Notes under the pieces: model-generated | What the model was told of the DNA's origin: nothing | Databases searched by the model: none | What the model saw: the letters and a program-made list of their open reading frames with translations, nothing else | Translations under genes and position numbers: made by a program | Sequence record: NC_054896.1 | Source: Escherichia phage tiwna | Strand: one strand, 5' to 3' | Length of the DNA stretch: 51,014 nucleotides | In this document: in pieces, positions 15,372 to 31,879 of the stretch | How positions within the stretch are numbered: position 1 is the first letter of the stretch | Layout of the letters: every line of letters begins with the position of its first letter

Positions 15372-16034
15372 ATGCACTTGCCTAATGGTTCTCAAATTTT
15401 CATCGGCGTTAACATGGGTGAGCCAATTAGCGCTACTCAAATCAGCAATGCTGATAATCCTGTTTTTACAACCGAAAACACTCAAAGCATCAAAAAAGGC
15501 GCTTATGTTCTTATTGAAACATCTTCCTGGGGCAAACTTGTTAGTCGCGTGCTTCGAGTTAAGGAAGTATCAGATAATGTAAGTGTTACTCTTGAAGGTG
15601 TTAGCACTAAAGATACAAACGTATTTCCAGAAGGACAGAACACAGCGACTTTCCGAGAGGTTAAATCTTGGGTAGAGATTCCTTGCGTACAGGATCTTGC
15701 TCAGGACGGCGGCGAGCAACAGTATTACACTTATCAGTGTTTGGCTGATGACCAGGAGCAGCAGTTACCGACCTACAAGAGCGCAGTTTCTCTTACCTAC
15801 ACTTTCGCGCATGAATATGATAATCCGATTTATCCGATCTTGCGCGAGGCTGAGGAATCCGGCGACGTAACCGCTTTGCGTATGTACGTTCCGAAAGCTA
15901 AAGAGATGCGTTGCTGGGCTGGCGTATTGTCTTTTAATGACATTCCGCAAACCACTATGAACGAAATGGAAACTGTTTCCCTTTCCGTATCTCTGAAAGG
16001 TCGATTTACGTTCTTATCTTCCGACATCAATTAA
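15372..16034 (+). CDS. major tail protein
   Basis: Strong RBS aaggagg; 220 aa; followed by a strong terminator; precedes the chaperone and tape measure genes. Confidence 0.6.
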   Translation: MHLPNGSQIFIGVNMGEPISATQISNADNPVFTTENTQSIKKGAYVLIETSSWGKLVSRVLRVKEVSDNVSVTLEGVSTKDTNVFPEGQNTATFREVKSWVEIPCVQDLAQDGGEQQYYTYQCLADDQEQQLPTYKSAVSLTYTFAHEYDNPIYPILREAEESGDVTALRMYVPKAKEMRCWAGVLSFNDIPQTTMNEMETVSLSVSLKGRFTFLSSDIN

Positions 16035-16038
16035 AACA

Positions 16039-16061
16039 AGGGGCGTTGCGCCCCTTTTTTC
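16039..16061 (+). terminator. rho-independent terminator after the major tail gene
   Basis: Hairpin aggggcgttgcgcccct followed by T6. Confidence 0.7.
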
Positions 16062-16100
16062 ATTCCTGTAAAATCAATCTATCAAATAAATCAATTCCAC

Positions 16101-16119
16101 TTTTAACAAAAAGTGCTAT
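16101..16119 (-). promoter_or_regulatory. conserved palindromic box, inverted copy abutting the chaperone RBS
   Basis: TTTTAACAAAAAGTGCTAT immediately followed by AAGGAG and ATG 16134. Confidence 0.4.
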
Positions 16120-16133
16120 AAGGAGATCTTGAG

Positions 16134-16451
16134 ATGGCAAAGATGAAACTAACGTTAGGCCCACTGCCTGATTTTAAGCTACCTGTTTCTTTCGTGCTTC
16201 CAAATGGTGATGAGCAAGTTATTGTTTTCACAGTACGCCACAAGAAGGCAAGCGAGATTCACGAGCGATACACGGCAGAAAAGCCGATGAGTGACGTAGA
16301 AATGATCACCTTCCTTGCTTCCGGTTGGGATCTGGATGATGAATTTAATGAGGAGAACGTTGCTAAATTGCTGGATTATTACCCGTCTGCGTCATTATCG
16401 CTGACTGGTCATTATATGAAAGCGCTTGCGGGGCAGCGGGTAAAAAACTAA
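16134..16451 (+). CDS. tail assembly chaperone (lambda G-like)
   Basis: About 105 aa directly upstream of the tape measure gene; ends just past a slippery heptamer. Confidence 0.6.
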   Translation: MAKMKLTLGPLPDFKLPVSFVLPNGDEQVIVFTVRHKKASEIHERYTAEKPMSDVEMITFLASGWDLDDEFNEENVAKLLDYYPSASLSLTGHYMKALAGQRVKN

Positions 16452-16768
16452 AGCGGGCGGTTTACCTGTTTTACCTCAAGCCGCCAACTGACGCACAATT
16501 AGAGGCCGTCGGCCTATCCCGTTCAGACTACGAAGGGGAGGAGCCGCCGGAGGTAATTTTTGATGAATCAATGTTTCAATCTTGGGATCTGTTTTGCGCT
16601 ATGCAGACGCAATGGAGATCGACTAGCGGCAGCGTGTATGGGTTCGACTATAACGTTTTGCCTATGCTTTTTGACATTTACAAGATTGAGGATCGGGAAA
16701 TGGCGCTAAATGATTTGCGCATCATGGAACAAAAGGCGCTAGAAATGATTCATTCAAACAAAACATAA
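16134..16768 (+). CDS. tail assembly chaperone frameshift product (GT-like), via -1 frameshift near 16442-16448
   Basis: The -1 frame is open from 16403 to 16768 and overlaps the end of G; slippery A AAA AAC in the G frame. Confidence 0.5.
16442..16448 (+). other. programmed -1 ribosomal frameshift slippery heptamer A AAA AAC
   Basis: X XXY YYZ pattern in the zero frame, 3 nt before the G stop codon. Confidence 0.5.
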
Positions 16769-16790
16769 GCGCCGCAAGGCGCTTTTTTAA
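16768..16790 (+). terminator. rho-independent terminator between GT and the tape measure gene
   Basis: Hairpin agcgccgcaaggcgct followed by T6. Confidence 0.55.
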
Positions 16791-16807: not shown

Positions 16808-19489
16808 ATGGCTGAGAAATACGCTGGCCTAACGCTAGGCGTTGACGTGTCGCAGGTCAACAATGCTGTTAAATCATTGCAGCAATTCAAGAAGGCAAAC
16901 GACGACGCAAAAAAAAGCGTTAATGAATTTGTTGATTCTGAGGTTGTGGCGCGACAGCAAGCTAAACAGTTTGCCGAAGAACTGGCGCGCCAGAAAGCAG
17001 AATTTAAGAAAATCCAGGAGTCAATTGATCCCACCGCGTCAAAGATGGATAAGCTGCGAAAAGCAGCGACACAGCTTGATGCGCTATGGAAAAAGGGCGT
17101 TGTTCCTGATGAGACTTTTTTTGAGCTTGGGGCAATTCTTGAGACACAGCAAAACAAGCTGATCGCAACCAAAAAGGCGATGACAGAGGAAGGCCGCGCG
17201 GCGCTTGAGGAATCAAAGAACAAGGCGCGTGCAGCGGAAGAGGCTAAAAAATTCATCCAGGCTTTGCGTGAGCAGGAAGAAGCAGCCGGAAAAAGCAAGT
17301 CTGAATTGCTGGAAATGAAAGCGGCACAGCTTGGAGTTAGCCAGGAGGCGGCGCCTTACATCGCAAGACTGAAAGAGCAGGAAAAGCAGATCCAAAAACT
17401 TGGGATTTCTACAGGCCAATACAATCAAGCAATGAAGCTATTGCCAATGCAGATCACAGACGTGGTGACTTCACTTGCTTCTGGTATGCCCGTTTGGTTG
17501 GTAGCAATCCAGCAGGGTGGACAGATTAAGGATTCTTTTGGTGGCGCATCCAATGCTTTAAAAGCGTTGCTATCTTTCCTGAATCCGGTAAACGTGGCGT
17601 TTGGCTTGCTTTCCGGCACGCTGGCAATTGCTGCATATAATGCATACAAAACACAGACAGAGTTTGAGGCAATTAAAAAAACCGTTCAGGAAACAACTGG
17701 CTTGACTGGTGATTTTGCCGAAAAGATTGCTACCGGAATCCAGGAGCTTTCCGACAAGACAGGCGAAAGCGCCGAAGATCTGGCAAAGGCTTACATCACC
17801 ACGAAAGACGGCGCGAGCGAGGCGATTAAAAAACTGGTTGACGTTGGCATGACTTATGATGACGCAAAAAAGAAAGTCAACGAGTACAAAGGCGCATCTA
17901 GCTTTGTTGGCCTGAATAACGACATTGCAAACCACAAAAATAAAATCCTTGAGTTGGGCGAGTCGTGGTATGAAGTTTTGAAAGCGAAGCGTGATTACGC
18001 TTCCCCGTCCGGCGGCCTGTTAGGTAAAGAGCTTGGCTATGTTAATCCTATGCTTAAGTTTGCACTTAACACTTATGAAGACATTGGAAAGGTCGTAAAA
18101 GATGCGAATAAGGACATGGCGGAACGAGCGGAGCGAATCGACAAAGAAAACCTTGCCTTGAACAGAGTGAGAGCAGCGCAGGAGGCTTTAAACAAAGCCA
18201 TTGAGGATCAGAAGGGCGTGGCGCGTTCGGCTGATGAAGAACTGAAAAAGCGCGCGGCTGAAAACGTGGAGTTCAGACGCAAAGAGCTTGAGGAGATCAA
18301 GAAGCAGGAGCAGAAAAAGAAAGAGGCTAAAGGTGGAATAGTTCGCGGCCCTACTGAGCAGCTTGATAAAGAGTTGTACGTTTTAAAAGCGCAACTGGAA
18401 ACTCTTAAAGAGCATCGCACTGTTAACGATGTTATTTCTCGCCAGCGTAAATCTTTATGGAGCATCGAAAAGCAGATCGAGATCCTGGAGGGTGCGCAGA
18501 GCAAGCGTAAATTGACAGGAGCGGAACAGGCGCTACTAAACGAGCAAAAAGCCGTTCTTGAAATGGCAAGGCAAAAAGCGGAGCTAGGGGATCAGATTGT
18601 TTTGCAGGAGCGCAAAAACAAGCTGGAGCAAGATAGCATTAAGTTTATCCGTGAAACGCAGGCGGCTATTGATGTGCTTGGCCTTAAGCAACTTGGCTAC
18701 ACTGAAAAGCAGATCGAGCGTGAGCTAGAGTTACGCAAGCTGCGCACCGACTACGAGGCGCAAGGCGGAAGCGTTAGCGATGAAGTTTTTCAGCAAATGG
18801 AGGCGAAACTTAAGCAGTATTATCAGACACAGGATGAGGTTCAAGGCAACTGGTTGGCAGGAGCAAAAAACGCATGGGAGATGTTCGCGGAAGATGCAAA
18901 CAATGCCTATGGCAATGTTCAGCAGATCGCAAGCGAGGCGTTAAACGGCCTTACAAACCAATTAGCGAATTTTATCGCTACTGGCAAGGCAAACTTTAAA
19001 GACTTCTCGACGGCTATCATCAAAATGATTATTCAGATGATCACGAAAATGGTTGTCTTTAATGCGTTATCTGGCCTGATGGGTGGTCAAACCTGGACGA
19101 TGGGGAGCCTGCTTAAGAATATTGGCGGATTTGCTGGCGGTGGATACACTGGCGACGGCGGGAAGTATGAGCCAGCCGGAATTGTCCATAAAGGTGAATT
19201 TGTCATGACGAAGGAGGCGACGCAGCGTATCGGGGTAGGCAACTTGTACCGCATGATGCGAGGCTATGCTAACGGCGGCGTTGTTGGTAGTTCCGGCTAT
19301 ACTGGCGGTGGCGCTGTCACTGGTGGAGCACCTCAATTTAACATTGGTGGGATTGATGTTAGCATCAATAACGGCAGCGATCCGAAGGGCATCGAAACTG
19401 GCGTTAAGATGATCTTTACTGATATGATTAAACGTTCCTGTATGCAGGGCGGGGAGGTTTACGAATTTGTTATGAGCAAGCGAGGTTGA
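16808..19489 (+). CDS. tail tape measure protein
   Basis: 893 aa, extensive coiled-coil-like A/E/K/Q-rich sequence, Gly-rich C-terminus; strong RBS ggagg. Confidence 0.8.
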   Translation: MAEKYAGLTLGVDVSQVNNAVKSLQQFKKANDDAKKSVNEFVDSEVVARQQAKQFAEELARQKAEFKKIQESIDPTASKMDKLRKAATQLDALWKKGVVPDETFFELGAILETQQNKLIATKKAMTEEGRAALEESKNKARAAEEAKKFIQALREQEEAAGKSKSELLEMKAAQLGVSQEAAPYIARLKEQEKQIQKLGISTGQYNQAMKLLPMQITDVVTSLASGMPVWLVAIQQGGQIKDSFGGASNALKALLSFLNPVNVAFGLLSGTLAIAAYNAYKTQTEFEAIKKTVQETTGLTGDFAEKIATGIQELSDKTGESAEDLAKAYITTKDGASEAIKKLVDVGMTYDDAKKKVNEYKGASSFVGLNNDIANHKNKILELGESWYEVLKAKRDYASPSGGLLGKELGYVNPMLKFALNTYEDIGKVVKDANKDMAERAERIDKENLALNRVRAAQEALNKAIEDQKGVARSADEELKKRAAENVEFRRKELEEIKKQEQKKKEAKGGIVRGPTEQLDKELYVLKAQLETLKEHRTVNDVISRQRKSLWSIEKQIEILEGAQSKRKLTGAEQALLNEQKAVLEMARQKAELGDQIVLQERKNKLEQDSIKFIRETQAAIDVLGLKQLGYTEKQIERELELRKLRTDYEAQGGSVSDEVFQQMEAKLKQYYQTQDEVQGNWLAGAKNAWEMFAEDANNAYGNVQQIASEALNGLTNQLANFIATGKANFKDFSTAIIKMIIQMITKMVVFNALSGLMGGQTWTMGSLLKNIGGFAGGGYTGDGGKYEPAGIVHKGEFVMTKEATQRIGVGNLYRMMRGYANGGVVGSSGYTGGGAVTGGAPQFNIGGIDVSINNGSDPKGIETGVKMIFTDMIKRSCMQGGEVYEFVMSKRG

Positions 19490-28561: not shown

Positions 28562-29218
<657 letters not shown>

Positions 29219-29261
29219 TAAACGGGGCGCTTGCGCCCCTTTTGTCATAGGAGAAAACAAA

Positions 29262-29714
29262 ATGCACGTTATTACAGGTGAGATCCGAAAAGAGCCAAAA
29301 GTAAAGCAAATGCCTAACGGCAGCACGCTATATGTTGTTGAGCTTTCCGAACGATATAAAGACCGTGAAGGCAATTGGCAGTATACAAACTATGTATTTT
29401 TCTTTAACGCGAAAACAGATGGCCTGAATGGTTGGTATGCTGAGGCGTTCCAGGTAGGCAAGGTTATTTCTGTTTCCTGCGATACCTTGCGAGTTGAAAC
29501 GCGAGAATACAACGGAAAGATTTACAGCACCGTGCAGCCTGGCGGATTTGCAAACTTGCTATTTAGCCAGCGTGGGGAAAGCCAGCAACAATATCAACAG
29601 CGAACGCAAGGAGGCTGGGGGCAACCACAACAGCAACAGCAACAAAATACTCAACAGCAGCCGCAGCAAAGCAATCAGCCGCCGATTGACTTTGATGATG
29701 ACATCCCTTTCTGA
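29262..29714 (+). CDS. ssb: single-stranded DNA-binding protein
   Basis: Q/G-rich linker and acidic tail ending DFDDDIPF (SSB hallmark); ATG 29262 follows a hairpin and AGGAG. Confidence 0.8.
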   Translation: MHVITGEIRKEPKVKQMPNGSTLYVVELSERYKDREGNWQYTNYVFFFNAKTDGLNGWYAEAFQVGKVISVSCDTLRVETREYNGKIYSTVQPGGFANLLFSQRGESQQQYQQRTQGGWGQPQQQQQQNTQQQPQQSNQPPIDFDDDIPF

Positions 29715-29719
29715 TAACA

Positions 29720-29750
29720 AAAAGCCCCGCATATGCGGGGCATATTTTAT
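29720..29750. terminator. bidirectional terminator between ssb (+) and the tail fibre gene (-)
   Basis: Hairpin gccccgcatatgcggggc with flanking A- and T-runs. Confidence 0.65.
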
Positions 29751-31879
29751 TTATCACTTAACTTTGAAATTAAATTTCTAATTTCGTTAATTTCTGATTT
29801 TAACATTTCTATTTCCTCTTGCTGTTTTTTTATTAATTCCTCTTGTCTATCTGAGTCAGAGATCATCTCATTTATAGCATTTACAAGCAATGCAGTAACG
29901 CCGCTATAACTTACACCCAAGTAATCAGAGTCTGATATTTTGTAAACAGCCTCCGGTAAAACATTTTGCACATCTTGAGCTATTACCCCAGCCTCCTCCG
30001 AATATATAGAATATTCATCTTCATAAAGATTACTGCGCTTAAAGTAAGTGTAACCCTTGATTGACTTCACTTTTTCTCTAGCGCCCTTAATCTCCTTCAA
30101 GTTTGCTTTCAGTCTAATATCTGACGTGCTGACCCATTGAACACATGAGGCGTAACCAGCATCATTAAATCCGAAAATCGCACCCCTTACATTAAAATGA
30201 GCCGCGCAACCTCCACTGCTATATCTGACAACATCAAGACCAGCAACCCATTCATAACCCCACCGAACGGCCTTAAAGATGCTTGAGGCTGCATCATCTG
30301 TTGGCAACTCAACAAGAAGACCAGACGCTCTATCCCTCCAGTCAGTAAAAGCACCTCCATATACTTGACCGCCAATTAGAGCATTGCCTCCGCCAATTCT
30401 AGATCCTGAAACTCTAATGCCATTTGCGTTATTATCAATAGGCCATATGGTTAAAAGACCGTTAAGGTGAGCTTGATATGCCTCCCATGTAAAAACATTT
30501 CTACCGTTTGCGAATGTCTGTAATATGCCGTCCCCACCTTGCTTAAACCCGGTGTCGCTATCACCTATAACTAACGAATTAGACCCAAGTGAATTTATAA
30601 TGCCTCTACCAATTGTTATTGTATTGTAATTTATGGCGTTTCCGCTTTCGTCAAATTGATAATAGTTTGTATCTCCACCTTCTCTTGTTACCTGTATTGT
30701 TGCTTTAGCTGTACCACCTATAATTTCATTGTAGACCCTTGAGTATGAAAGCTGCACACCTTCTGCGTTCTTGTTTCTAAGGTAAAGAATGCCTGATGCT
30801 TCTCCGTTGTTGTTATCAAGATTTACCCCCAAGAATACAGGGATATGATTTGTCGCAAGCCCTAAATTGTGCCTTACTCCATCGGGAGTTGTTGCGCCTG
30901 TACCGCCAGCGCCAATAGAAAGCGCATATGTAGCGTTATCACTATTACTTGCAACTCTCCATTCTCCATTGTTAGCAATCCTCAATTCATAGCTTGCTTG
31001 CGGATTAGCGAAGCTGTTGTAATCGCCAGGCGTTGAATGAGAAGCCGGATCATTGCTAATTACCGCTTGAACCTGCAACACTTTTCTTGCTTCAGCCTTA
31101 TCAGTAAGATCATTAAGGTTTTGATCCTTATGGAGAATATTTTCAGGATTTACTTGTTGCGCCCATTGCATAGCCTCATCTCTTGCAGATTCAGCGGCTG
31201 ATTTTGCACTTTCAGCATAATTCTTGGCATTGTCAGCCTCATTTTTAGCATTAATTGCGCCATCTCTAGCTGATTCAGCCTCTGATTTAATGCTTGTAAC
31301 CTCAACAACTGCAGAGTCCTTTATTTGCTGAGTCTGATCTTTAATTGATTGAGCCTCGTTTTTTATGGCGTTAGTTTCGCTTACTGCGTCATCTTTGATC
31401 TTCTGAGTTTCAGCTAGGGCAGAATCCTTTATCTGTTGAGTGTCATTTTTTAATTGCTCAGTGGCTGCGCGATCTGTTGCTACTTGTTGCGCAGACTCCT
31501 TAACTTGATTCACCAGATCCTTTAAGCCATCCAAATCAAAATCTTTAAAAAACTCTATTGCTTCTGCAATTTCTGTTTCCTTGCTCTGGTAATAACGCAA
31601 AGTTTCCGCTACATCCTGCGCAAGCCCGTCAACCGTTAACGAGTCATGAAGCAAGATCAGGTAATTTGTTTGCTGAACTACTTCACCGCCAGTAGTAATG
31701 GCGCGAATGCTTGTATCGCTAATCACCTCTGTGATCACGGCAGCTTGCAAAGGTTGAGTAAGAAAGAAAATAGTTGCACCTGGGCGAATCAATGTTAATT
31801 GCTCGCGCCATTTTGTTTCGTAACCAGTAACATAACCTTGAGCGTCCATCGACGCTTGGCCTTGTCTGTAAATCGCCAT
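29747..31879 (-). CDS. tail fibre protein with C-terminal intramolecular chaperone (S74-type) domain
   Basis: C-terminal SDIRLK motif and following about 110 aa resemble self-cleaving chaperone domains; coiled-coil Q/K-rich region; GGAGG RBS before ATG 31879. Confidence 0.65.

What the first reader, a model, noticed from the sequence alone, without database searches (positions are those of the whole stretch)
16403..16768. Programmed -1 frameshift in the tail assembly chaperone (G/GT-like) at A AAA AAC
The G-like gene (16134..16451) ends 3 nt after a canonical slippery heptamer A AAA AAC (16442-16448). The -1 frame is open from 16403 and continues to 16768, so a -1 slip yields a roughly 210-aa fusion. 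This is the conserved G/GT arrangement upstream of tape measure genes; the track lists only the 65-aa ATG-initiated tail of this frame (16571..16768). A terminator hairpin (16768-16790) sits between GT and the tape measure gene.
Basis: partly seen in the sequence, partly recalled or inferred. Interest (0 to 1): 0.55.

Follow-up and report, generated by a model that had tools for sequence, protein, structure and literature searches.

The report
T1-like phage tail chaperone frameshift
This is the ordinary lambda G/GT-type -1 ribosomal frameshift that makes a long and a short tail assembly chaperone; here it sits in a T1-like coliphage, is very well supported by comparison with relatives, and is already annotated in some related phages.

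Summary
A 105-codon tail assembly chaperone gene (16134..16451, Pfam Phage_TAC_4) ends with A_AAA_AAC (16442-16448) in the correct phase, followed directly by TAA. The -1 frame then stays open for 106 codons, to 16768. One coordinate is wrong: that frame opens at 16367, not 16403.

In 36 of 36 intact relatives, with G identity down to 52%, the string AAAAAAC-TAA-A never varies. The three codons that build the heptamer are the only synonymous sites in G that never vary. The 41 codons between the slip site and the ATG at 16571 evolve like protein. They contain no ATG, GTG or TTG, and no conserved ribosome binding site precedes that ATG. Distant prophage homologues keep A_AAA_AAC, and one relative has A_AAG at the same place.

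The window is a Warwickvirus-like phage (Drexlerviridae). The same frameshift is annotated or described for Stevie, OzMSK, Skenny and U136B, but not for the closest relatives or RefSeq T1. The downstream hairpin is not conserved. Reporter data in E. coli suggest an efficiency below 1% for this heptamer. This is a known feature, so interest is low.

The parts
15372..16034 (+). Major tail (tube) protein gene, the upstream neighbour and the inferred client of the T segment
   Evidence: PF08813 Phage_tail_3, E=6e-63; annotated as major tail protein in relatives
16038..16056 (+). Terminator-like hairpin plus T run between the tail tube gene and the chaperone gene
   Evidence: Pattern scan; annotated as a terminator at the same place in T1, Stevie and Sip
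16120..16125 (+). Shine-Dalgarno AAGGAG, 8 nt upstream of the G start codon
   Evidence: Sequence; anti-SD duplex -9.3 kcal/mol at normal spacing
16134..16451 (+). G-like tail assembly (tape measure) chaperone gene, 105 aa, zero frame
   Evidence: ORF list; PF08748 Phage_TAC_4 E=3.9e-31 over residues 1-105; PHROG 17368/569
16442..16448 (+). Slippery heptamer A_AAA_AAC in X_XXY_YYZ phase (codons AAA 16443-5 and AAC 16446-8)
   Evidence: Sequence; invariant in 36/36 intact relatives; its three third-codon positions are the only invariant synonymous sites in G
16449..16451 (+). Zero-frame stop TAA directly after the heptamer
   Evidence: Sequence; invariant TAA in 36/36 Drexlerviridae relatives although TGA would be silent in both frames; one codon further downstream in most prophage homologues
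16448..16768 (+). T-like segment: 106 codons in the -1 frame (LKRAVYLF...HSNKT) plus stop. The frame itself is open from 16367
   Evidence: Translation; PF08809 DUF1799 at residues 23-101; PHROG 17368 positions 109-211; coding-type substitution pattern
16134..16768 (+). Predicted GT-like fusion product, 211 aa, made by a -1 slip at 16442-16448
   Evidence: Inference; joined CDS annotated in Stevie and OzMSK
16456..16485 (+). Possible stimulatory hairpin (8 bp, 14-nt loop), 7 nt after the heptamer; status uncertain
   Evidence: MFE -13.2 kcal/mol but z=-1.3; 87% of cells paired in relatives, one compensatory pair, broken in the more divergent relatives, including Braunvirinae, Kyungwonvirus CS01 and three IMG/VR contigs; not predicted by RNAalifold
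16571..16573 (+). ATG (Met42 of the T segment), the start of the 65-aa ORF called by gene finders; probably an internal Met
   Evidence: Met is invariant, but the GGAGG is 17 nt upstream and is absent in many relatives; annotated T starts differ between records
16767..16790 (+). Terminator-like hairpin plus T run between T and the tape measure gene
   Evidence: Pattern scan; annotated as a terminator in T1, Stevie and Sip
16808..19489 (+). Tape measure protein gene (893 aa), the downstream neighbour and the inferred client of G
   Evidence: PF06791 and PF09718

Best explanation
The region encodes the two tail assembly (tape measure) chaperones of a T1-like siphovirus, made from one mRNA by a programmed -1 ribosomal frameshift.

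Ribosomes start at ATG 16134 behind a strong AAGGAG. Most read GTA AAA AAC and stop at UAA 16449-51, which gives the 105-aa G-like chaperone. A small fraction slip back one base on A_AAA_AAC (16442-16448), with tRNA-Lys in the P site and tRNA-Asn in the A site re-pairing on AAA AAA. They continue in the -1 frame with CUA AAG CGG... to UAA 16766-68, which gives a 211-aa GT-like protein.

By analogy with lambda (inferred, not shown here), G and the G part of GT coat the tape measure protein. The T part recruits the tail tube protein. Neither chaperone ends up in the virion, and a fixed low GT:G ratio is what matters.

The heptamer is a weak one in E. coli, so the GT fraction is probably about 1% or less unless the adjacent stop or the local hairpin raises it.

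Shown: the anatomy, the family assignments, selection on the heptamer, and protein-coding constraint on the stretch that has no start codon. Inferred: the slip itself, its rate, and the roles of G and T.
For: - Anatomy.
- Gene order is tail tube (PF08813), TAC (PF08748), DUF1799, tape measure (PF06791/PF09718).
- PHROG 17368 (213 positions) matches G at 1-107 and the -1 extension at 109-211, so it is a family of fused proteins.
- AAAAAAC-TAA-A is invariant in 36/36 intact relatives from Tempevirinae, Tunavirinae, Braunvirinae and Kyungwonvirus, with G identity down to 52%.
- In a 36-sequence G alignment the only invariant third-codon positions are Trp65, one single-sequence insertion column, and the three consecutive codons GTA/GCA-AAA-AAC.
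- C16448T and A16450G would be silent in both frames, yet neither occurs.
- The 41 codons between the slip site and ATG 16571 differ between relatives at codon positions 1/2/3 by 0.165/0.103/0.452. The rest of T gives 0.199/0.103/0.451. The peptide LKRAVYL is invariant from the first post-slip codon.
- That stretch has no ATG/GTG/TTG. The SD-like GGAGG lies 17 nt from ATG 16571 and is absent in many relatives.
- Prophage homologues in Proteus, Providencia, Arsenophonus and Phlomobacter (T identity 36-44%) keep GAA AAA AAC and the -1 relation. One relative (L040) has GCA AAG CCC TAA, which places the A_AAG tetramer at the same spot.
- A joined CDS is annotated in Citrobacter phage Stevie and Escherichia phage OzMSK. 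A 210-aa 'tape measure chaperone' exists for Klebsiella phage Solomon.
- The frameshift is mentioned in PMC4319613, PMC6763657 and PMC8104045.
- A_AAA_AAC is a proven -1 site in E. coli IS1 (PMC4066793).
Against: - There is no direct evidence for the product. I found no experimental demonstration of GT in any T1-like phage in the papers searched.
- The heptamer is weak in E. coli reporters: 0.16% without a stimulator, 0.19% with the IS911 stimulators and 0.74% with the IS3 pseudoknot, against a background of about 0.04-0.07% (PMC4066793 supplement).
- No conserved stimulator was found. The hairpin at 16456-16485 is not significant on its own (z=-1.3) and is broken in the more divergent relatives. 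No conserved upstream SD-like element is present.
- The T segment is not detectably related by sequence to lambda gpT; only DUF1799 is hit. Its role is therefore assigned by position and analogy.
- Met42 is invariant, so an additional free T product cannot be excluded.
Confidence: 0.9

Rival explanations
1. T is a separate small gene translated on its own from ATG 16571 (65 aa), as most database records annotate it. There is no frameshift, and the open frame upstream of the ATG is incidental.
For: - Gene finders and 13 of the 15 inspected records call a separate short ORF or none at all.
- Met42 is invariant in relatives.
- The window has a strong GGAGG upstream of it.
- The OzMSK record notes an 'independent RBS'.
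Against: - The 41 codons upstream of that ATG are conserved as protein as strongly as the rest.
- The DUF1799 and PHROG 680/17368 matches extend upstream of the ATG.
- The GGAGG is 17 nt from the ATG, against 5-8 nt for real starts nearby, and it is missing in T1, SRT8, CS01 and the Braunvirinae.
- Annotated starts differ from record to record, giving 55 to 103 aa.
- This reading does not explain the invariant heptamer at synonymous sites.
Confidence: 0.03
2. The frame change is made at the RNA level. RNA polymerase stutters on the A6 run and adds one A to a fraction of transcripts, and normal translation of those gives the fusion.
For: - The site is a homopolymeric A run: A6 in the window, A7 in the prophage homologues.
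- Insertion of one A gives the same fusion, with junction VKK-LKR.
- Sequence analysis alone cannot tell the two routes apart.
Against: - From my own knowledge, not tested here: productive transcriptional slippage in bacteria generally needs runs of about 8-9 or more.
- The same A6C site in IS1 is treated in the literature as ribosomal frameshifting (PMC4066793).
- Relative L040 has only AAA within GCA AAG but keeps the -1 arrangement with the classical ribosomal A_AAG motif.
- The C at the end of the heptamer is invariant although T would be silent in both frames. That fits a codon-anticodon rule better than a run-length rule.
Confidence: 0.04
3. It is a chance arrangement or a decayed gene: a frameshift mutation or sequencing error split a single chaperone gene, and the heptamer is coincidental.
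For: - AAAAAAC occurs at chance frequency in the window.
- Two database relatives (Shigella phage 2019SD1 and Salmonella phage 36) do show indels at this run.
Against: - The same two-frame arrangement occurs in 36 independent genomes and in distant prophages.
- G always ends at, or one codon after, the heptamer.
- The two odd records carry several other frame breaks in conserved coding sequence, which is typical of homopolymer errors.
Confidence: 0.01

Closest known systems
Tape measure chaperone frameshift of T1-like phages (Drexlerviridae), as annotated in Citrobacter phage Stevie (KM236241), Escherichia phage OzMSK (PQ659294) and Klebsiella phage Solomon, and described for Skenny and U136B
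   Same: - Orthologous genes: G identity 52-69%.
- Identical AAAAAAC-TAA-A site and the same -1 extension of 104-107 codons.
- The same flanking terminators and neighbouring genes (PMC4319613, PMC6763657, PMC8104045).
   Different: - Nothing of substance differs.
- The window's closest relatives (Warwickvirus, 96-98% nt identity) and RefSeq T1 simply do not carry the joined annotation.
Bacteriophage lambda G/GT (Levin, Hendrix and Casjens 1993; Xu, Hendrix and Duda 2004, 2013, 2014)
   Same: - Position between the tail tube and tape measure genes.
- A short chaperone plus a -1 frameshift-extended form, with the slip near the 3' end of G.
- No downstream structure is known to be required.
- A low-level fixed ratio (lambda about 30:1, PMC5009743).
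   Different: - The heptamer is A_AAA_AAC, not G_GGA_AAG.
- The Pfam families differ: Phage_TAC_4 and DUF1799 are the only hits, and no lambda G or T family appears.
- The zero-frame stop abuts the heptamer.
- Efficiency is probably lower.
- No experimental data exist for this family.
IS1 insA-insB' transposase frameshift
   Same: The same heptamer, A_AAA_AAC, in the same host. It is a proven low-level -1 frameshift with no established stimulator (PMC4066793).
   Different: It involves unrelated proteins and a different purpose (transposase dosage).
E. coli dnaX and IS911/IS3-type stimulated -1 frameshifts
   Same: An A-rich heptamer decoded by tRNA-Lys, and a possible hairpin 7 nt downstream.
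   Different: - Those use A_AAA_AAG with an upstream SD and a strong downstream structure, and reach tens of percent.
- Here the last base is C, there is no conserved SD, and the hairpin is neither significant nor conserved.

Membership tests
Phage G/GT-type tail assembly chaperone frameshift (Xu, Hendrix and Duda 2004) | Two ORFs located between the major tail protein gene and the tape measure protein gene | tested here: met
   PF08813 at 15372..16034 and PF06791/PF09718 at 16808..19489, with the two ORFs in between
Phage G/GT-type tail assembly chaperone frameshift (Xu, Hendrix and Duda 2004) | The downstream ORF overlaps the end of the upstream ORF in the -1 frame and lacks its own start codon near its 5' end | tested here: met
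   The -1 frame is open over 16367..16768 and overlaps G by 82 nt. The first ATG/GTG/TTG is at 16571
Phage G/GT-type tail assembly chaperone frameshift (Xu, Hendrix and Duda 2004) | A slippery sequence of the X_XXY_YYZ type, in phase, within the overlap | tested here: met
   A_AAA_AAC at 16442-16448, formed by the last two sense codons of G
Phage G/GT-type tail assembly chaperone frameshift (Xu, Hendrix and Duda 2004) | The arrangement and the slip site are conserved in relatives beyond what protein coding requires | tested here: met
   36/36 intact relatives are invariant. The only invariant synonymous sites in G are the heptamer's. Distant prophages keep it, and L040 has A_AAG instead
Phage G/GT-type tail assembly chaperone frameshift (Xu, Hendrix and Duda 2004) | The region downstream of the slip site is translated (protein-level constraint) | tested here: met
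   Codon-position differences are 0.165/0.103/0.452 in the 41 codons with no start codon. T is more conserved than G (81% against 71% column identity)
Phage G/GT-type tail assembly chaperone frameshift (Xu, Hendrix and Duda 2004) | Both G and GT proteins are made, at a fixed low ratio, and both are needed for tail assembly | not testable with these tools
   This needs western blot or mass spectrometry and genetics. No report for T1-like phages was found
Tail assembly chaperone protein family (Pfam Phage_TAC_4, PF08748) | Sequence match above the curated threshold | tested here: met
   108.3 bits against a cut-off of 21.1, over residues 1-105
Tail assembly chaperone fold (spiral TAC fold) | Predicted structure matches solved TAC structures | tested here: inconclusive
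   The single-sequence AlphaFold model of G has pLDDT 41.7 and is unusable. No PDB relative was found by sequence
DUF1799 (PF08809), the T-like segment of this lineage | Sequence match above the curated threshold | tested here: met
   48 bits against a cut-off of 26, over residues 23-101 of the -1 extension
Lambda gpT domain family | Detectable sequence or fold similarity to lambda T | tested here: not met
   The Pfam scan returns only DUF1799. The T model (pLDDT 67) matches only its own sequence relatives in BFVD, and there is no PDB hit. T is 'T-like' by position and analogy only
Stimulated -1 frameshift signals (dnaX/IS911/IS3 type) | A conserved downstream hairpin or pseudoknot 5-8 nt after the heptamer | tested here: inconclusive
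   A hairpin lies at 16456-16485 after a 7-nt spacer, at -13.2 kcal/mol but z=-1.3. 87% of cells are paired, there is one compensatory pair, and it is broken in divergent lineages. RNAalifold predicts no consensus
Stimulated -1 frameshift signals (dnaX/IS911/IS3 type) | A conserved upstream Shine-Dalgarno-like element | tested here: not met
   The G-rich codons upstream vary freely at wobble positions (alignment A1 columns 17-29)

The most novel reading that the evidence does not exclude
The invariant pairing of a deliberately weak heptamer (A_AAA_AAC, although A_AAA_AAG is far more shift-prone in E. coli) with an abutting UAA stop may be a distinct 'shifty stop' signal. TGA would be silent in both frames, yet it never occurs in 36 Drexlerviridae. 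On this reading, slow termination rather than an RNA structure sets the GT:G ratio, possibly coupling it to release-factor activity or growth state. A second possibility is that the invariant Met42 also yields a free T protein.
Probability: 0.1. Interest if true: 0.3.

Novelty: already known. Interest (0 to 1): 0.12.

Why it matters
Mainly for annotation. Most Drexlerviridae records, including RefSeq T1 and the window's closest relatives, list G and a truncated, inconsistently started 'T' ORF, or no T at all, instead of G plus a joined 211-aa GT product. PHROG labels both as 'tail length tape measure protein'.

Correct annotation gives the right protein for tail-assembly studies and for work on defence systems that sense tail assembly chaperones.

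Biologically it adds nothing new in kind. It is one more conserved instance of the G/GT rule, and it uses the same weak heptamer as IS1.

Tried and rejected
- The heptamer count in the window is at chance level, so the motif alone carries no weight.
- Downstream hairpin 16456-16485: not significant against shuffles, only one compensatory pair and broken in divergent relatives, and not predicted as a consensus. I list it as a possibility only.
- Upstream SD-like stimulator: not conserved.
- Independent start at ATG 16571: the SD spacing is 17 nt and the SD is not conserved.
- Rfam: nothing in the frameshift region. The only hits are sub-threshold and lie on the terminator at 16028-16111.
- PDB sequence searches with G and T profiles found nothing meaningful.
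- The word-indexed protein search with the fusion returned only three T-type proteins.
The G model was unusable (pLDDT 41.7). The T model was moderate (pLDDT 67), and its fold search returned only sequence relatives.
- Two relatives that seemed to lack the site (Shigella phage 2019SD1 and Salmonella phage 36) have A5 plus several other frame breaks, and I judge them to be sequencing errors.
- A second end-of-ORF heptamer in the window (A_AAT_TTC at about 29772) lies in a spurious ORF over the end of the SSB gene.
- The text of Xu et al. 2004 is not held in the paper library, so I could not check whether T1 was in their table.

Full report
**What the window is.** The 1.4 kb around the finding is 96-98% identical to Warwickvirus phages (Drexlerviridae, Tempevirinae) such as FritzSarasin, JLBYU07 and tunus (taxonomy). 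The window therefore comes from a T1-like virulent coliphage. The local gene order is as follows:
- tail tube protein, 15372..16034 (PF08813)
- a terminator-like hairpin, 16038-16056
- a 105-codon ORF, 16134..16451 (PF08748 Phage_TAC_4, E=4e-31)
- a -1 frame ORF ending at 16768
- a second terminator-like hairpin, 16767-16784, plus a T run
- the tape measure gene, 16808..19489 (PF06791 and PF09718)

**Check of the observation.**
- The last codons of the chaperone gene are GTA AAA AAC TAA (16440-16451).
- A_AAA_AAC at 16442-16448 is therefore in the X_XXY_YYZ phase, and the stop abuts it.
- The -1 frame reads ...GAAGKK LKRAVYLFYLKPP... and runs to the TAA at 16766-16768.
- A slip gives 105 + 106 = 211 aa.
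The frame opens at 16367, after a TAA at 16364-16366. This changes nothing.
- The first ATG/GTG/TTG in that frame is at 16571.
- The heptamer alone is not informative: 25 copies in the window against 21 +/- 4 expected.
- The informative parts are its phase, its position, and the 106-codon open frame. The median -1 extension behind in-frame heptamers in this window is 8 codons, and the few longer ones lie in spurious ORFs over real genes.

**Comparative evidence.** I collected the homologous region from 15 annotated phage records and 23 IMG/VR contigs.
- 36 of 38 distinct regions are intact. All 36 carry the identical string AAAAAAC-TAA-A and a -1 extension of 104-107 codons, with G protein identity down to 52%. 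They cover Tempevirinae, Tunavirinae (T1, Shfl1, SRT8), Braunvirinae and Kyungwonvirus.
- This 11-column run is the longest invariant stretch in the 100-column alignment around the site.
- In a codon alignment of G, every third-codon position varies except four columns: Trp65, one single-sequence insertion column, and the three consecutive codons GTA/GCA, AAA and AAC that build the heptamer. The first of these is a four-fold degenerate site that stays A even when the codon changes from Val to Ala.
- C16448T and A16450G would be silent in both frames, and neither occurs.
- The two exceptions (Shigella phage 2019SD1 and Salmonella phage 36) have A5 instead of A6 together with several other frame breaks in conserved coding sequence. 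I read them as homopolymer sequencing errors.

**Is the stretch upstream of ATG 16571 translated?**
- The 41 codons between the slip site and that ATG differ between relatives by 0.165/0.103/0.452 per site at codon positions 1/2/3. The remainder of T gives almost the same values, 0.199/0.103/0.451, and G gives 0.247/0.175/0.525.
- The peptide LKRAVYL is invariant from the very first post-slip codon.
- The DUF1799 match begins at residue 23 of the extension, 19 codons upstream of Met42.
- PHROG 17368 has 213 positions. G covers 1-107 and the extension covers 109-211, so it is a family of fused proteins.
- The SD-like GGAGG in the window ends 17 nt before ATG 16571, whereas real starts nearby have 5-8 nt. 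It is also absent in T1, Shfl1, SRT8, CS01 and the Braunvirinae.
- Annotated starts for 'T' range from 55 to 103 aa between records, and two records omit T altogether.
- Independent initiation as the sole route is therefore very unlikely. An additional free T product from the invariant Met42 cannot be excluded.

**Distant relatives.**
- A scan of bacterial genomes with the T profile found prophage homologues in Proteus, Providencia, Arsenophonus and Phlomobacter, with T identity of 36-44%.
- There G ends ...CGC GAA AAA AAC TCC TAA/TAG (or AAC TAA). A_AAA_AAC and the -1 relation are kept, the stop usually lies one codon later, and the downstream sequence is unrelated.
- One contig (L040) has GCA AAG CCC TAA. 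The heptamer is gone, but A_AAG, the classical -1 tetramer of E. coli, sits at the same place and T is still in the -1 frame.
- This replacement argues for a ribosomal mechanism and against polymerase stuttering.

**Stimulators.**
- A hairpin (16456-16463 paired with 16478-16485) starts 7 nt after the heptamer and folds at -13.2 kcal/mol. However, 23 of 200 shuffles fold as well.
- In relatives 87% of cells pair. There is one compensatory pair (in two sequences). The stem is broken in the more divergent relatives, including the Braunvirinae, Kyungwonvirus CS01 and three IMG/VR contigs (L031, L034, L036).
- RNAalifold does not predict it.
- Its arms encode the conserved residues R-A-V and K-P-P, so coding constraint can explain most of it.
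- No conserved upstream SD-like element exists, and Rfam has nothing here.

**Expected efficiency.**
- In E. coli reporters AAAAAAC gave 0.16% without a stimulator, 0.19% with the IS911 stimulators and 0.74% with the IS3 pseudoknot. AAAAAAG gave 0.29%, 4.3% and 39%. Background was about 0.04-0.07% (PMC4066793 supplement and text).
- The same heptamer is the proven site of IS1, with no established stimulator.
- Lambda needs about 30 G per GT (PMC5009743).
- A GT fraction of about 1% or less is my inference. The abutting UAA could raise it ('shifty stop', cited in PMC5009743), but that is untested.

**Mechanism.** The full account is given under the best explanation. In short, most ribosomes make the 105-aa G-like chaperone, and a small fraction slip -1 on A_AAA_AAC and make a 211-aa GT-like protein.
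- A tandem slip predicts the junction ...QRVKN-LKRAV....
- The two flanking terminators, annotated in T1, Stevie and Sip, probably step expression down from tube protein to chaperones to tape measure. This is also inference.

**Comparison with what is known.**
- The kind is the G/GT frameshift of long-tailed phages, and all sequence-level criteria for it are met.
- The proteins belong to Phage_TAC_4 and DUF1799, not to the lambda G and T families. The T segment is 'T-like' by position and analogy only.
- Structure tests did not help. The G model has pLDDT 41.7. The T model has pLDDT 67 and matches only its own sequence relatives, among them a 210-aa 'tape measure chaperone' of Klebsiella phage Solomon.
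- Within the same virus family the frameshift is already annotated as a joined CDS in Stevie and OzMSK. It is mentioned in the genome announcements of Stevie, Skenny and U136B.
- 13 of the 15 records I inspected, including RefSeq T1 and all close Warwickvirus relatives, do not annotate it.

**Verdict.** Novelty is 'already known': an orthologous, identically placed site is annotated and published for T1-like phages, although I found no experimental proof for this family. Interest is low. The value lies in correct annotation and in a very clean comparative signature of selection on a slippery heptamer.

Noticed in passing
L022 (Shigella phage 2019SD1, NC_049820) and L038 (Salmonella phage 36, KR296690), at the slip site: Both deposited records have A5 instead of A6 at the slippery run, plus several other frame breaks inside the conserved G and T coding sequence. 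These look like homopolymer sequencing errors, not loss of the frameshift.
   Followed up: partly
L040:1460-1510 (contig in a Fibrobacter MAG, Braunvirinae-like phage sequence): G ends GCA AAG CCC TAA. The A_AAA_AAC heptamer is replaced by the A_AAG tetramer at the same place, and T is still in the -1 frame. This is a natural swap of one slippery motif for another.
   Followed up: partly
L041-L048 (prophages of Proteus, Providencia, Arsenophonus and Phlomobacter): Distant homologues (T identity 36-44%) keep GAA AAA AAC, a run of seven A. The zero-frame stop is one codon further on (TCC TAA/TAG) and the downstream sequence is unrelated, so neither the abutting stop nor the hairpin is universal.
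   Followed up: partly
window 16038-16056 and 16767-16790: Intrinsic-terminator-like hairpins bracket the chaperone cassette. One follows the tail tube gene and one precedes the tape measure gene. Both are annotated as terminators in T1, Stevie and Sip, which suggests stepwise attenuation of expression along the tail operon.
   Followed up: partly
window 16028-16111, minus strand: A sub-threshold Rfam match to the Salmonella sRNA family STnc50 (35 bits against a gathering score of 55, E=5e-4) overlaps the terminator hairpin. It is most likely a hairpin-driven chance match.
   Followed up: no
window 16571 (Met42 of the T segment) and 16549-16553 (GGAGG): Met42 is invariant in all relatives, and the window has a strong SD-like GGAGG, but 17 nt upstream. 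A minor free T product cannot be excluded.
   Followed up: partly
window 29494..29781: An ORF ending exactly on A_AAT_TTC with a 43-codon -1 extension. It is a spurious ORF overlapping the end of the SSB-like gene (29211..29714) and the convergent tail fibre gene, so I rejected it.
   Followed up: yes
Database annotation (PHROG 17368/569/680; RefSeq T1 ST39/ST40): Both chaperone ORFs are labelled 'tail length tape measure protein' in PHROGs and in PGAP-style RefSeq records. The T ORF start differs from record to record, giving 55 to 103 aa. These are systematic mis-annotations.
   Followed up: partly
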